From a virus (taxonomy: Duplodnaviria; Heunggongvirae; Uroviricota; Caudoviricetes), in the IMG/VR virus record IMGVR_UViG_2718217859_000010: 64,000 bases of DNA. One strand, given 5' to 3'. Shown here piece by piece: positions 12,001 through 15,000 of this stretch. Position 1 is the first letter of the stretch, and the number at the start of each line of letters is the position of its first letter. Position numbers: made by a program.

Positions 12001-15000
12001 TCTTCGCGTTAAACATTGATCACGTCTGCGCCGATTTCAGATAAAAAGGTAGCTATTAAGCAATACGTAACTTTTACAATTAGTGAAATTATCTAAAACA
12101 CAAGTTATATAGATGAGAAAATGAAACATTATCTTTAACAAATCAAACAAAACAACACATCATCTTGTTGACACCATACAAAGTGAATAGTAAACTATTA
12201 TATGTGAAAATTTGCATGTTGCGTGCAATAAAAAATAAATGATACTTTGCTATTGTTAAATCAATAGGGGGTATCTATGCGCTTTATCTCATCCATTTTA
12301 AAAACCTGCAGAACCACAATTACTTTAGCTGTAATTGTTACCATCATATACCTCATCTATTTTACCCCTCGAGATAAAATCGATTCACTAGCGATCATCG
12401 TTCATGCAATGGCTACATTAACTAAAAAACTTTAATAATTTCACTATCAGGCGCATAAACACATCTTTGATCGCTGGATGTGTTATGCGCCTACTGGTGA
12501 TTCAATCCTTAAGCCATTTCAACTCACTAAGGAGTTTTCTTTCTTCGTTCTCTCGCTGTTTACGCTCTAGCCAGGCTTTTCCCTCTGGCGTAGACAGGAA
12601 CTTACGAGCGTGAATCTTGCGGTTATTACGTTTGATAGCTGCAATGTTTTTCATCGTGTGCCTCTGTATTCATATGAAAATTAACAAGTTACATACTACA
12701 CAGGGAGACTACGCATAAAACACAATACAAGTAAAGATACATTTTCAAGACAATAGGAGCCATAAAGCGCCTTTGATGGTTATACCAAAAAATAAGCGCC
12801 GTAGGCGTATCCACTAAAAAGGGCTTTTTCACAAAAGCTATGAAGTCTTAGCAGTTCTTCTCTTATCAGGCACCCGTTGTACTCCGGTGGACGAAACCGT
12901 GCTAGAGCTTGATTCTTTCCCGATCAAGTTAGGTTTTGAAGAGGTGGGCTTTAATCCACTATTGCACTTAAAACTCTTCCCATCATTTAGCCTGTTTATC
13001 CTCTGCAACGTCTCACGACGTGTAGCATCATTGGACACCGCGCCAGGTGTGGAACATCTTGCTAAGAGTTTTGGTAGAAGGTTTAGAGACGGTGGCACGT
13101 CTTCCAGCTTCAAAGGAACTTGTTACGAGGTTGAGCCTGGGAACTACTCGCCCATACGTGTTACACTACCAAAGCCCATAACAACGTATAGGCGTTTGTA
13201 AGTGATAACAGAAGATACAATTTCTTAGAGAAGTTAAGCTAAGTTATTGATTTTCTTGATGGTGCCGATAATAGGAGTCGAACCTACGACCTTCGCATTA
13301 CGAATTATAAGAATCCGCTTCTAATTCAAAGTATTACCCCATCAACACTGCGCTCACACGTCCCACCACATCAAAACATGTAAAGCCTTGCAAGCCATTG
13401 TGAGGCCTTATGTGTCTCAGTTTTGTCCCACTACGACCTGCACAGCAAATAAGAAAATAGCGGTGATATCAAACAGTACAGAAATCTTTTTTCTTTCAAA
13501 TGGAGAAACTGATTAACCCGTTTAATTGTACTCCTCATGGGTAATGATAAGGCACAGGAACCAAATCACTATTATGAATTTAATTTCACTATAGTAAATT
13601 TGATAACTCGTTTTGTATCTCAAAACACAAGCAACGACCACTTTAAGGGAGATAACATGTTAAAAATCAGAATGTCGCGACCATCTGAAGCACAAGAAAT
13701 TATCCAAATTTGGAAAAATTCCGTGTAACCGGCTCATTTAAACCGTCTGGTCTGTTTCCTCCGGCTCTACAAAAATAATGTCCATCATTTTTAATGGACA
13801 CTATCGTATGAAACACCGGACCTGGATCACTGAAGCTTTACGTCTTCACTTTGAAGAACATTTACCCCGGGTTGTGGCCGGGCGTCGCCTGGGTGTACCA
13901 AAATCAACAGTTTGTAGTATGTTCGTGCGCTTTCGGAGAGCTGGCCTTTCGTGGCCTTTGCCCGCAGGCATGTCGGAGCAGGAACTTGATGCCTGCCTTT
14001 ACGGACAATTTTCCACGGTACCAGTCGTACGTCCTGAAAGCACCGTTATATCCGAAGCCCCCGTGGTAAAAAAACGTCCCCGGCGGCCCAACTTCCCTTA
14101 TGAGTTTAAAATCGCCTTAGTGGAGCAGTCACTGCAGCCCGGAGCCTGTGTGGCGCAGATCGCCCGGGAAAACGGAATCAACGATAACCTGCTCTTCAAC
14201 TGGCGCCATCAATACCGGAAAGGTGGCCTGCTGCCTTCCGGAAAAAATATGCCGGCACTGCTTCCCGTGACGTTAACGCCGGAGCCGGATAATAAAATCC
14301 CGGCCCCCGCACAGGAACCAGAGCAGATAAATACACCGTCCGACAGTCTGTGTTGTGAGCTGGTTCTGCCGGCCGGAACTCTCAGGCTTAAAGGTAAACT
14401 GACGCCGGCGTTATTACAGACACTTATCCGCGAAATAAAAGGGAGCAGCCACTGATGATATCTCTCCCTGCAGGTTCGCGTATCTGGCTGGTTGCAGGTA
14501 TCACCGATATGCGAAATGGCTTTAACGGCCTGGCATCAAAAGTTCAGAACGTCCTGAAGGATGACCCGTTCTCCGGACACCTGTTCATCTTCCGCGGACG
14601 CCGGGGTGACCAGATAAAAGTGTTGTGGGCTGACAGTGACGGACTGTGCCTCTTCACCAAACGCCTGGAGCGGGGCCGCTTCGTCTGGCCAGTCACCCGT
14701 GACGGCAAGGTGCACCTTACTCCGGCTCAGTTATCCATGCTTCTTGAAGGTATCAACTGGAAGCACCCGAAACGAACGGAACGCGCTGGAATCCGCATAT
14801 AACCCGTTGTAAAGTGAGGATATGGACACCTCACTTGCTCATGAGAACGCCCGCCTGCGGGCACTGTTGCAGACGCAACAGGACACCATCCGCCAGATGG
14901 CTGAATACAACCGCCTGCTCTCACAGCGGGTGGCGGCTTATGCTTCCGAAATCAACCGGCTGAAGGCGCTGGTTGCGAAACTGCAACGTATGCAGTTCGG

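What the first reader, a model, noticed from the sequence alone, without database searches (positions are those of the whole stretch)
12277..12654. Convergent pair of small orphan ORFs: hydrophobic 52-aa peptide and basic 50-aa protein
A 52-aa ORF with one strongly hydrophobic segment and a good RBS (12277-12435) converges tail-to-tail, 66 bp apart, on a 50-aa Lys/Arg-rich ORF (12502-12654). Both are below the ORF-track cutoff. A small membrane peptide next to a small basic protein is reminiscent of toxin-antitoxin or small-toxin modules, though I cannot assign either to a family.
Basis: inference. Interest (0 to 1): 0.45.

Follow-up and report, generated by a model that had tools for sequence, protein, structure and literature searches.

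The report
Two unrelated small mobile-element genes
Both small ORFs are real genes of a 12.7-kb phage-like island in E. coli, but they are not a toxin-antitoxin pair: the basic one is a conserved core gene that always follows an undescribed structured RNA, and the hydrophobic one is a swappable accessory cassette in the island's defence-gene slot.

Summary
In detail: a 52-codon ORF (12277-12435, +) and a 50-codon ORF (12502-12654, -) converge 66 bp apart.

Both show protein-coding selection. They have different evolutionary status, so the toxin-antitoxin reading is not supported.

ORF50:
- It is a core gene of a thrW-integrating, capsid-gene-carrying element, bounded by att repeats at 538-556 and 13260-13278.
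- Homologues about 50 aa long occur across Enterobacterales and in 509 of 5426 complete E. coli genomes.
- All homologues share the core KRNNRKIHARKFLxTPEGKxWL. The predicted fold is a basic helical hairpin.
- It is almost always preceded on the same strand by a roughly 380-nt structured RNA (13189-12811, -). That RNA has 17 helices, 32 base pairs with compensatory changes, and no Rfam match.

ORF52:
- It occurs in only 52 of 5426 genomes, plus a second allele at 38% identity.
- It lies in a variable slot that in relatives holds restriction-modification systems and other defence candidates.
- It is a self-contained cassette: sigma-70-like promoter, a roughly 70-nt leader that sequesters the Shine-Dalgarno sequence, a two-helix membrane peptide, and a terminator-like hairpin.

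The biochemical functions of both proteins remain inferred. The RNA-ORF50 module is the most novel result.

The parts
12168..12196 (+). Sigma-70-like promoter of the ORF52 cassette (TTGACA-17-TAAACT). It overlaps the palindrome AATAGTAAACTATT at 12186-12199.
   Evidence: The scan gives 10 of 12 matches. The homologous site TTGACG-17-TAGACT is present in the divergent allele 2. The palindrome is unique in the window and kept in allele 2.
12204..12276 (+). Predicted ORF52 5' leader of about 70 nt. It has two hairpins, and the second (12241-12275) sequesters the Shine-Dalgarno sequence.
   Evidence: Local fold energy is -12.7 kcal/mol against -5.9+/-2.1 for shuffles. Allele 2 has a different sequence but the same architecture, at -14.9 against -5.3+/-2.3. 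The transcription start is inferred from the -10 hexamer, not measured.
12277..12435 (+). ORF52: a 52-aa hydrophobic peptide, predicted as a transmembrane helix plus a C-terminal amphipathic helix. It is accessory cargo.
   Evidence: The two alleles share 38% identity, the same length and the same position. Codon-position identity is 0.60/0.69/0.31. AlphaFold2 predicts helices 2-29 and 32-51 at pLDDT 75. It is present in 52 of 5426 E. coli genomes and never annotated in the rows and loci inspected. No family hits were found.
12441..12500 (.). Intergenic hairpin of about 17-24 bp between the two stop codons. It is a candidate bidirectional terminator.
   Evidence: Found by the inverted-repeat search and by the fold of 12200-12510, which has z = -3.8. 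It is identical in the allele-1 and allele-2 loci. It is part of the variable cassette and absent from loci with other cargo. There is no clean U-tract on the + strand. On the - strand a U6 run lies 12 nt downstream.
12502..12654 (-). ORF50: a 50-aa basic helical-hairpin protein and core gene of the element family.
   Evidence: RefSeq annotates it as WP_000788776.1, hypothetical protein. There are 57 homologue clusters at 90% identity and 43 at 50% identity among 1.8 billion proteins. The core RNNRKIHARKFL..T..G..WL is invariant. Codon differences are 319 synonymous against 70 non-synonymous. AlphaFold2 predicts helices 4-20 and 23-49 at pLDDT 90.
12706..12735 (-). Weak candidate promoter for ORF50: TTTACT (12735-12730), 18 nt, TAGTCT (12711-12706).
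   Evidence: It is conserved in position as TTTAC(T/A)-N18-TAnnnT across the Klebsiella and Enterobacter loci in alignment. It falls below the scan threshold. This is an inference.
12787..12808 (-). Short GC hairpin followed by a U-run on the minus strand. It is terminator- or attenuator-like and lies between the RNA and ORF50.
   Evidence: Read directly from the sequence. Analogous hairpin plus CUUUCUU in the Klebsiella loci. It is too short for the scan criteria.
12811..13189 (-). Conserved structured RNA of about 380 nt with 17 predicted helices, directly upstream of and co-oriented with ORF50.
   Evidence: The region is 76-83% identical to the Klebsiella, Enterobacter and Raoultella loci. 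RNAalifold predicts 86 pairs, 32 of them with compensatory changes. 96.5% of cells are paired, against 31-44% in slid controls and 0 of 500 shuffles. The covariance model of the 3' domain hits 12837-13069 (-) at 168 bits and is the only hit in the window. No Rfam match was found.
13260..13300 (-). att repeat containing the 3' end of tRNA-Thr (thrW), co-oriented with the RNA and ORF50. The 19-bp core TGGTGCCGATAATAGGAGT is repeated at 538-556.
   Evidence: Pattern search and sequence. An intact thrW occupies the same position and orientation in L106 and L108.
11394..11951 (+). Small serine recombinase (resolvase/invertase family) that bounds the far side of the cargo slot.
   Evidence: Pfam Resolvase at 8.9e-39 and PHROG DNA invertase at 4.5e-62. 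Relatives carry a small serine or tyrosine recombinase at the same place.

Best explanation
The window holds a 12.7-kb integrative, phage- or satellite-like element (557-13259) inserted at a thrW att site. Its att-proximal end is built as: [thrW 3' end] -> [about 380-nt structured RNA] -> [ORF50] -> [variable cargo slot] -> [small recombinase].

ORF50 (shown):
- It is a conserved core gene encoding a 50-aa protein.
- The N-terminal helix carries +7 charge. The predicted fold is a two-helix hairpin.

ORF50 (inferred): it is a nucleic-acid-binding protein that acts with or on the RNA it always follows. It could be an RNA-binding partner, or a regulator of transcription running from the RNA/leader into the cargo slot.

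ORF52 (shown):
- In this strain it is the content of the cargo slot.
- It is an autonomous 'moron'-type cassette: a sigma-70-like promoter overlapped by a palindrome, a leader that masks its ribosome-binding site, a 52-aa two-helix membrane peptide, and a terminator-like hairpin.

ORF52 (inferred): like the restriction-modification and other defence genes that occupy the same slot in relatives, it gives the host or the element an accessory phenotype at the membrane. Candidates are exclusion of incoming phage or a tightly controlled membrane-active effector.

The two genes are neighbours by cassette insertion, not partners.
For: Element and boundaries:
- att repeats.
- Integrase, major capsid protein, tape-measure-like protein and replication initiator.
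- Three 22-bp iterons.

ORF50 is a core gene:
- Homologues sit at the same place in Klebsiella, Enterobacter, Raoultella and E. coli elements. They are also present in non-integrated 13.5-14-kb circular-looking contigs.
- It is under purifying selection.

RNA-ORF50 linkage:
- 93 of 94 loci retrieved through ORF50 carry the RNA motif upstream.
- 12 of 13 loci retrieved through the RNA motif from species-representative genomes carry an ORF50 homologue within 700 nt downstream on the same strand. One of the 12 is frameshift-degraded.

RNA structure.

Cargo slot:
- 22 different downstream contexts.
- PADLOC assigns three different type II restriction-modification sets and PDC-S31 to cargo proteins.
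- Divergence between cassettes starts at the last codons of ORF50.

ORF52 is real and self-contained.

Frequencies: 509 against 52 of 5426 genomes.
Against: - No experimental expression data were available.
- ORF52 is never annotated by PGAP, and one genome has ATG>ACG at its start.
- ORF52 matches no defence family, so its 'defence/exclusion' role rests only on its position.
- ORF50 has no significant sequence or fold relative of known function: bL34 at E about 0.5, Foldseek PDB with no hits, BFVD with nothing below E about 4.
- RNA binding by ORF50 is inferred only from charge and linkage.
- One Pantoea locus has the RNA but no ORF50 within 900 nt.
- The strand of the RNA is favoured but not proven. 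The sense fold is -76.6 with 86 pairs, against -68.8 with 65 pairs for the antisense.
Confidence: 0.65

Rival explanations
1. ORF52 is a stand-alone type I-like toxin or abortive-infection effector. It would be a small membrane-depolarising peptide kept silent by its structured leader or by an undetected antisense RNA.
For: - It is 52 aa with one strongly hydrophobic helix.
- It has a leader of about 70 nt whose second hairpin sequesters the Shine-Dalgarno sequence in both alleles, despite unrelated sequence.
- It has its own promoter overlapped by a palindrome.
- It sits in a slot otherwise used by defence genes.
Against: - It has no homology to Hok, Ldr, Ibs, TisB, Zor or other families.
- No conserved antisense promoter was found. 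The only antisense-strand hit in the window (12259-12232) and the one in allele 2 (L066 8234-8261) are at non-homologous places. Promoter counts are at chance level.
- The start codon is lost in one genome without an obvious compensating change.
Confidence: 0.25
2. ORF52 and ORF50 form a toxin-antitoxin pair: membrane toxin plus basic protein antitoxin, or the ORF50 mRNA 3' end acting as an antisense antitoxin by convergent read-through.
For: - They are adjacent and convergent, 66 bp apart, and share one hairpin.
- ORF52 was only ever found next to ORF50.
Against: - ORF50 is about ten times more frequent than ORF52 in E. coli and is followed by 22 other contexts.
- ORF50 is also conserved in elements with no ORF52 at all, including Klebsiella loci and the circular L007-9 contigs.
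- Neither gene has a TA family hit.
Confidence: 0.03
3. ORF50 is a DNA-binding regulator or architectural protein of the element, for example a repressor or anti-repressor, a recombination directionality factor, or a packaged DNA-condensing protein. On this reading the upstream RNA-like block works independently of it.
For: - It has a basic N-terminal helix.
- It lies near attP and diverges from the integrase once the element is circularised.
- In L007-9 it sits between the two structural operons.
Against: - It is retained in L007-9, where no Phage_integrase- or Resolvase-family gene was called. That argues against a directionality factor.
- It has no helix-turn-helix, ribbon-helix-helix or winged-helix signature and no fold match.
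- The near-obligate linkage with the RNA on the same strand would be left unexplained.
Confidence: 0.3
4. ORF52 is a decaying or non-functional reading frame, conserved only because the cassette is young.
For: - It is never called by PGAP.
- Only two alleles are known.
- One genome has ATG>ACG.
- Within allele 1 there are no synonymous changes from which to measure selection.
Against: - Between the alleles the third codon position is saturated (0.31 identity), while positions 1 and 2 stay at 0.60 and 0.69. The frame, length, hydropathy profile, Shine-Dalgarno sequence and promoter are all kept.
- Within allele 1 the ORF has 1-2 changes in 159 nt, against 8-10 in the 117 nt upstream.
Confidence: 0.12

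Closest known systems
Phage 'morons' encoding small inner-membrane proteins, such as the superinfection-exclusion moron gp15 of HK97 (from my own knowledge of the literature; not tested here)
   Same: - The ORF52 unit is autonomous, with its own promoter and terminator-like hairpin.
- It is inserted between conserved genes and absent from close relatives.
- GC content is lower than in the flanks: 0.32 at 12001-12400.
- The product is a small membrane peptide.
   Different: - No sequence similarity to any described moron product was found.
- No phenotype is known.
- The host element is a 12.7-kb capsid-gene-carrying island rather than a complete lambdoid phage.
Anti-phage defence hotspots of P2 phages, P4-like satellites and PICIs (Rousset et al. 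2022 and Fillol-Salom et al. 2022; from my own knowledge)
   Same: - A fixed slot between conserved element genes holds different cargo in different relatives.
- That cargo includes type II restriction-modification systems and the PADLOC candidate PDC-S31.
   Different: - The element backbone is not P4-like or a classical PICI. It has an HTH_36/DUF6945 replication initiator with iterons, an HK97-type capsid protein and tape-measure- and Dit-like proteins. No portal or large terminase was recognised.
- The slot is bounded by a small basic protein with a structured RNA on one side and a small recombinase on the other. As far as I know this layout has not been described for those hotspots.
Type I toxin-antitoxin systems (hok/sok, tisB/istR-1, ldr/rdl, zor/orz)
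   Same: - ORF52 is a hydrophobic peptide of about 50 aa.
- It has a long structured leader that occludes the ribosome-binding site.
   Different: - There is no family homology.
- No conserved antisense RNA promoter was found.
- The neighbouring gene is not its partner.
Small proteins that act on structured RNAs of mobile elements: lambda N with nut/boxB, and ColE1 Rop with RNA I/RNA II (analogy only; from my own knowledge)
   Same: - ORF50 is a very small protein encoded next to, and co-oriented with, a conserved structured RNA.
- It is a predicted two-helix hairpin like Rop, with an arginine/lysine-rich N-terminal helix like the arginine-rich motif (ARM) peptides.
   Different: - No sequence or fold match was found.
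- Rop is acidic, and N is about 107 aa and disordered.
- The RNA here is about 380 nt with 17 helices, far larger than nut sites.
- No replication origin is evident at this position. The iterons lie about 2 kb away.

Membership tests
Type II toxin-antitoxin module | Two adjacent genes in one operon, co-directional and usually overlapping or closely spaced | tested here: not met
   The genes converge tail-to-tail and have separate promoter-like sites.
Type II toxin-antitoxin module | Toxin and antitoxin are co-inherited | tested here: not met
   ORF50 with the RNA is in 509 genomes and the ORF52 cassette in 52 of 5426. There are 22 alternative contexts downstream of ORF50.
Type II toxin-antitoxin module | Homology of at least one partner to a known toxin or antitoxin family | tested here: not met
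   No Pfam, NCBIfam, PHROG or PADLOC hit for either protein.
Type I toxin-antitoxin system | Hydrophobic toxin peptide under 60 aa with a transmembrane helix | tested here: met
   ORF52 is 52 aa, with maximum hydropathy 2.6 and a predicted helix at residues 2-29.
Type I toxin-antitoxin system | Antisense or divergent small RNA overlapping the toxin mRNA | tested here: inconclusive
   Only consensus scans were possible. The antisense promoter-like hits are not at homologous positions in the two alleles and are no more frequent than chance. No transcriptome data were available.
Type I toxin-antitoxin system | Membership of a described toxin family (Hok/Gef, Ldr, Ibs, TisB, ShoB, Zor, DinQ and others) | tested here: not met
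   No hits at E<=1 in Pfam or NCBIfam.
Moron / accessory cassette in a defence hotspot | Present or absent between conserved flanking genes in otherwise related elements | tested here: met
   The cassette boundary lies at the last codons of ORF50.
Moron / accessory cassette in a defence hotspot | Own promoter and terminator | tested here: met
   TTGACA-17-TAAACT with its homologue in allele 2, and a strong 3' hairpin. These are predictions only.
Moron / accessory cassette in a defence hotspot | The same slot carries recognised defence systems in relatives | tested here: met
   PADLOC hits: REase_II at 4.6e-207 and 2.1e-143, a fused MTase_II/REase_II protein with MTase_II E-value 0, and PDC-S31 at 1.2e-36.
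Moron / accessory cassette in a defence hotspot | The cargo itself confers phage resistance or exclusion | not testable with these tools
   This needs phage challenge of strains with and without the ORF52 cassette.
Any Rfam family (for the RNA at 12811-13189) | Score at or above the gathering threshold, or any match at E<=5 over the region | tested here: not met
   No hit in the region at the gathering threshold. At E<=5 the only match is a chance SNORA22 hit at 12649-12788, outside the RNA.
Ribosomal protein bL34 (the only sequence resemblance found for ORF50) | Significant profile match | tested here: not met
   The best PDB sequence hits are bL34 at E = 0.45-1.8, not significant. This is a compositional resemblance between small basic RNA-binding proteins at most.
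Recombination directionality factor (Xis-like) for ORF50 | Co-occurrence with the integrase it assists | tested here: not met
   ORF50 is retained in the 13.5-14-kb contigs L007-L009, where no Phage_integrase- or Resolvase-family gene was called and which were never found inside chromosome-sized contigs.

The most novel reading that the evidence does not exclude
The roughly 380-nt structured RNA and the 50-aa basic helical-hairpin protein ORF50 together form a previously undescribed ribonucleoprotein or riboregulatory module. It would be a hallmark of a family of small, capsid-gene-carrying mobile elements of Enterobacterales. Placed directly downstream of the thrW tRNA gene on integration, it would control expression of the adjacent defence or cargo slot, or the element's interaction with a helper phage.
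Probability: 0.3. Interest if true: 0.7.

Novelty: new variant of a known kind. Interest (0 to 1): 0.5.

Why it matters
- It removes a false toxin-antitoxin lead.
- It defines the architecture of a cargo or defence hotspot in a poorly described family of small, thrW-integrating phage-like elements. The module that marks this hotspot (the RNA with ORF50) is present in about 9% of complete E. coli genomes.
- It identifies a real but unannotated 52-aa membrane peptide gene with two deeply divergent alleles. This is a candidate exclusion, defence or toxic effector that is easy to test.
- It uncovers a large structured RNA with strong covariation support and no Rfam family, always paired with a tiny basic protein. 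If the two work together, this would be a new small RNP or riboregulator of mobile elements in well-studied, genetically tractable hosts.

Tried and rejected
1. **Invertible segment driven by the adjacent serine recombinase.** The only inverted repeats flanking the ORFs (12122-12137 and 12732-12747, 13 of 16 nt) are chance-level and lie in non-conserved sequence.
2. **Csr-type sponge RNA.** I counted six GGA motifs by eye in about 380 nt, which is roughly the chance expectation, and ORF50 is all-helical, unlike CsrA.
3. **ORF50 as an excisionase.** It is retained in L007-9, where no integrase-family gene was called.
4. **The element being Sakai prophage Sp1 or Sp2 at thrW.** Sakai 296-330 kb is annotated as a lambda-like and a P4-like element, and the RNA model does not hit it.
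5. **A protein-coding reading of 12838-13113 (-, 91 aa) or 12887-13201 (+, 104 aa).** Homologous loci differ by 1-2-nt indels and show paired compensatory changes, which fits an RNA and not an ORF.
6. **Function from structure.** AlphaFold2 models of both proteins are simple helical hairpins. Foldseek against PDB and BFVD gave nothing significant for ORF50.
7. **A conserved antisense promoter inside ORF52.** The hit in allele 2 (L066 8234-8261) corresponds to a much poorer site in the window.
8. **Literature searches for the element family or the RNA** found no description.
9. **Phage and plasmid collections.** Neither protein has a tblastn hit in the phage records. A DNA search of the plasmid records with the ORF52 cassette (12150-12500) found only two partial matches, covering its 3' end and the hairpin.
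Full report
**Observation**

- ORF52 runs 12277-12435 (+) and has a GGGGG Shine-Dalgarno sequence.
- ORF50 runs 12502-12654 (-) and has a GAGG motif at 12664-12661.
- The 66-nt gap holds a long hairpin with arms at 12441-12458 and 12483-12500.
- ORF50 has 15 K/R against 7 D/E, and its first 20 residues carry +7 with no acidic residue.
- ORF52 has one strongly hydrophobic segment.

An open 52-codon frame is not remarkable on its own in this AT-rich DNA. About 5% of shuffles stay open. The question of reality therefore had to be settled by comparison with related sequences.

**Genomic setting**

The window is an E. coli chromosome at the thrW/CP4-6 locus.
- A 19-bp direct repeat, TGGTGCCGATAATAGGAGT, occurs at 538-556 and 13260-13278. 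The right-hand copy continues into the 3' end of tRNA-Thr on the minus strand.
- Between the repeats lies a 12.7-kb element carrying these genes:
  - a tyrosine integrase;
  - a lysozyme- or tail-like protein;
  - a 613-aa tape-measure-like protein;
  - an HK97-type major capsid protein;
  - an HTH_36 replication initiator;
  - a small serine recombinase at 11394-11951.
- It also carries three 22-bp iterons at 10835-10893.
- No portal or large terminase was recognised.
- The two ORFs are the last genes before the right-hand att site.
- RefSeq annotates ORF50 as hypothetical protein WP_000788776.1. It does not annotate ORF52 in any genome inspected.

**ORF50 is a conserved core gene**
- A search of 5.8 billion proteins returned 57 clusters, all about 50 aa. 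They come from E. coli, Shigella, Klebsiella, Enterobacter and Raoultella, at identities down to about 60%.
- An exhaustive HMM search of 1.8 billion representatives found only 43 clusters. The family is real but narrow.
- The core KRNNRKIHARKFLxTPEGKxWL is almost invariant.
- Over 25 core codons in eight diverged loci, codon-position identity is 0.88/0.92/0.48, with 319 synonymous against 70 non-synonymous codon differences. That is clear purifying selection on the protein.
- AlphaFold2 predicts a two-helix hairpin (helices 4-20 and 23-49) at pLDDT 90.
- There is no Pfam, PHROG, NCBIfam or PADLOC match.
- There is no Foldseek match in PDB or BFVD. The only sequence resemblance is a non-significant one to ribosomal protein bL34, at E about 0.5.

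**What lies next to ORF50 elsewhere**

In Klebsiella, Enterobacter and other E. coli loci the homologue keeps the same position. It sits a few hundred bases inside the element end that abuts thrW/proA.

What follows it differs. Among 80 loci there are 22 distinct downstream contexts. The cargo includes:
- an 828-aa fused MTase/REase;
- two other MTase+REase pairs;
- a DUF2971 protein, which PADLOC calls PDC-S31;
- an AAA/STAND-like ATPase;
- a YafQ-family toxin gene;
- several secreted proteins.

Next comes a small serine or tyrosine recombinase and then the replication module. Divergence between cassettes begins within the last codons of ORF50. One example is ...WLKD* against ...WLREDF*. The segment between ORF50 and the recombinase is therefore a cargo slot that often carries defence systems.

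**ORF52 is the cargo here, and it is a real gene**
- The ORF52 cassette is in 52 of 5426 complete E. coli genomes, against 509 for ORF50 with its upstream block.
- Protein searches found only this peptide and a second allele, MHLLSKHLHTIHFLVIDVFIVAISYRICIASSEEMDAVAIIAQAMAMLTKRL. The second allele has 38% identity, the same 52-codon length, and the same position next to an identical ORF50.
- Between the two alleles, codon-position identity is 0.60/0.69/0.31 overall. It is 0.80/0.85/0.40 in the C-terminal 20 codons. Both alleles keep the same hydropathy profile. This is the signature of a translated gene.
- Both alleles keep a sigma-70-like promoter: TTGACA-17-TAAACT at 12168-12196, and TTGACG-17-TAGACT in allele 2. 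Both promoters are overlapped by the palindrome AATAGT-NN-ACTATT.
- Both alleles have a leader of about 70 nt whose second hairpin sequesters the Shine-Dalgarno sequence, although the leader sequences are unrelated. Fold energies are -12.7 and -14.9 kcal/mol, against about -5.5 for shuffles.
- AlphaFold2 gives helices 2-29 and 32-51 at pLDDT 75.
- Within allele 1 the ORF has 1-2 substitutions in 159 nt, against 8-10 in the 117 nt upstream.
- One genome has ATG>ACG at the start codon. This is a caveat.

**Consequence for the TA hypothesis**

Several facts argue against a toxin-antitoxin pair:
- the genes are convergent with separate signals;
- they are not co-inherited;
- ORF50 exists in many elements with no ORF52;
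- neither resembles a known toxin or antitoxin.

A type I-like, stand-alone toxin reading of ORF52 stays open, because it is a small hydrophobic peptide with an occluded ribosome-binding site. However, consensus scans gave no antisense promoter conserved between the alleles.

**The unexpected part: a structured RNA upstream of ORF50**
- The 'non-coding' 600 bp between att and ORF50 is as conserved as ORF50 itself, at 76-83% identity to the Klebsiella, Enterobacter and Raoultella loci.
- The alignments show frame-breaking 1-2-nt indels together with paired substitutions.
- RNAalifold on eight diverged sequences predicts 86 pairs in 17 helices, including long-range helices. Thirty-two pairs have compensatory double changes.
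- In the independent count, 96.5% of cells are paired, against 31-44% when partners are slid by 1-3 columns. The same count gives 32 covarying pairs against 2-7 in the slid controls, and 0 of 500 shuffles reach the observed values.
- The ORF50-sense strand folds better than the antisense: -76.6 kcal/mol with 86 pairs, against -68.8 with 65 pairs. It also contains several invariant G-U pairs.
- In window coordinates the RNA spans 13189-12811 on the minus strand. A short GC hairpin with a U-run follows at 12808-12787.
- No Rfam family matches, even at E<=5.
- A covariance model of the 3' domain (190 positions, 52 pairs) finds one copy in the window, at 12837-13069 with 168 bits. It gives full-length hits in diverged loci (L105, L112, L087, L011) and none in the Sakai control region.
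- In the 13.5-14-kb non-integrated relatives L007-9, only the most conserved hairpin (CACGGUUUC...CACCGG...ACCUGAUAA) is recognised.

**Linkage of the RNA and ORF50**
- 93 of 94 loci retrieved through ORF50 carry the RNA motif upstream.
- 13 loci were retrieved purely by the RNA motif from one-genome-per-species contigs. They come from Raoultella, Pantoea, Enterobacter, Kosakonia, Escherichia, Winslowiella and Citrobacter.
- Of those 13, 11 have an intact ORF50 homologue within 700 nt downstream on the same strand and one has a frameshifted copy. One Pantoea locus has none.
- In every integrated locus checked, the order and orientation is tRNA-Thr (or its 3' end) -> RNA -> ORF50.
- No consensus promoter precedes the RNA inside the element. 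Read-through from thrW is therefore a plausible source of transcription, but this is an inference.
- A weak, positionally conserved TTTACT-N18-TAGTCT (12735-12706, -) could serve ORF50 itself. This too is an inference.

**Mechanism proposed**

Shown:
- the element end is organised as RNA, then ORF50, then variable cargo, then recombinase;
- ORF50 and ORF52 are both under protein-level selection;
- ORF52 is a self-contained cassette in a slot that elsewhere carries restriction-modification systems.

Inferred:
- ORF50 is a nucleic-acid-binding protein working with or on the RNA it always follows. It could be an RNP partner or a regulator of transcription entering the cargo slot.
- ORF52 is a moron-type membrane peptide whose translation is held in check by its leader. 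Its product would act at the inner membrane in exclusion, defence, or as a controlled toxic effector.

I put about 0.65 on the architectural reading (core gene plus unrelated cargo, not a TA pair). I put about 0.3 on ORF50 specifically binding the adjacent RNA.

**Comparison with known systems**
- The ORF52 cassette behaves like a phage moron and like the cargo of satellite or prophage defence hotspots. It is not a member of any described protein family.
- The RNA-ORF50 pair has only loose analogies, such as lambda N with nut or ColE1 Rop with RNA I/II. It fails every sequence and fold membership test applied.
- Literature searches found no description of the RNA or of this element family. The Sakai prophages Sp1 and Sp2 at the same tRNA are different elements.

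**Verdict**

The finding as written, a TA-like orphan pair, is only partly right and in itself of modest interest. The follow-up shows three things:
- a genuine unannotated membrane-peptide gene with two ancient alleles;
- a defence/cargo hotspot;
- a well-supported, apparently undescribed structured RNA tightly coupled to a tiny basic protein. This module is present in about 9% of complete E. coli genomes and is directly testable.

Noticed in passing
window 12811-13189 (minus strand): A structured RNA of about 380 nt with 17 helices and 32 covarying pairs. It has no Rfam match and is tightly linked to ORF50 across Enterobacterales.
   Followed up: yes
window 538-13278: A 12.7-kb element bounded by 19-bp thrW att repeats. 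It carries an integrase, an HK97-type capsid protein, a tape-measure-like protein, a lysozyme-like protein and a replication initiator, but no recognisable portal or large terminase. It may be an undescribed satellite-like family. It sits in tandem with CP4-6 at a secondary att site.
   Followed up: partly
L007 (26.7-kb contig with a 13,531-bp repeat unit), L008, L009: Relatives of the element occur as 13.5-14-kb contigs that look circular or concatemeric. No Phage_integrase- or Resolvase-family gene was called in them, and they were never found in chromosome-sized contigs, which suggests an extrachromosomal, plasmid-like form. They keep ORF50 and a diverged copy of the RNA directly after the tape-measure gene.
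   Followed up: partly
window 10835-10893: Three tandem 22-bp iterons (TCA[AC]A[TG]TGACCTACCCCCTAGC) lie in a 1.4-kb ORF-poor region next to the replication initiator gene. This is a probable origin.
   Followed up: no
window 12186-12199: A perfect palindrome, AATAGT-AA-ACTATT, overlaps the -10 hexamer of the ORF52 promoter. It is unique in the window and conserved in the divergent allele 2. It may be an operator for an unknown repressor.
   Followed up: partly
window 12016-12052: A 35-nt block (TGATCACGTCTGCGCCGATTTCAGATAAAAAG) is conserved between the two otherwise divergent ORF52 cassettes and absent from all other cargo types. Its function is unknown. It may mark the cassette boundary or act as a regulatory site.
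   Followed up: partly
L106 (E. coli 2013C-3492), ORF52 start: The ORF52 start codon is ATG>ACG in this genome, and the -10 hexamer carries two changes. This may be inactivation of the cassette.
   Followed up: no
L112 (Candidatus Pantoea varia), 3267-3449: A full-length match to the RNA 3' domain (136 bits) has no ORF50 homologue within 900 nt downstream. It is the only exception to the linkage.
   Followed up: partly
window 12617-12644 (+ strand): A terminator-like hairpin with a T-run lies on the strand antisense to ORF50, inside its first codons. It could stop ORF52-sense read-through. The scan count is near chance.
   Followed up: no
window 13778-16393: An IS66-family insertion (three ORFs of 225, 115 and 523 aa) lies just beyond the right-hand att. 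In related genomes the CP4-6 integrase gene intF sits at that position.
   Followed up: no
window 57561-57749, 49736-49953 and 20795-20992: Rfam hits at the gathering threshold elsewhere in the window: C4 antisense RNA and isrK adjacent to each other (a P1/P7-type immunity region of another prophage), STnc100, and IS009.
   Followed up: no
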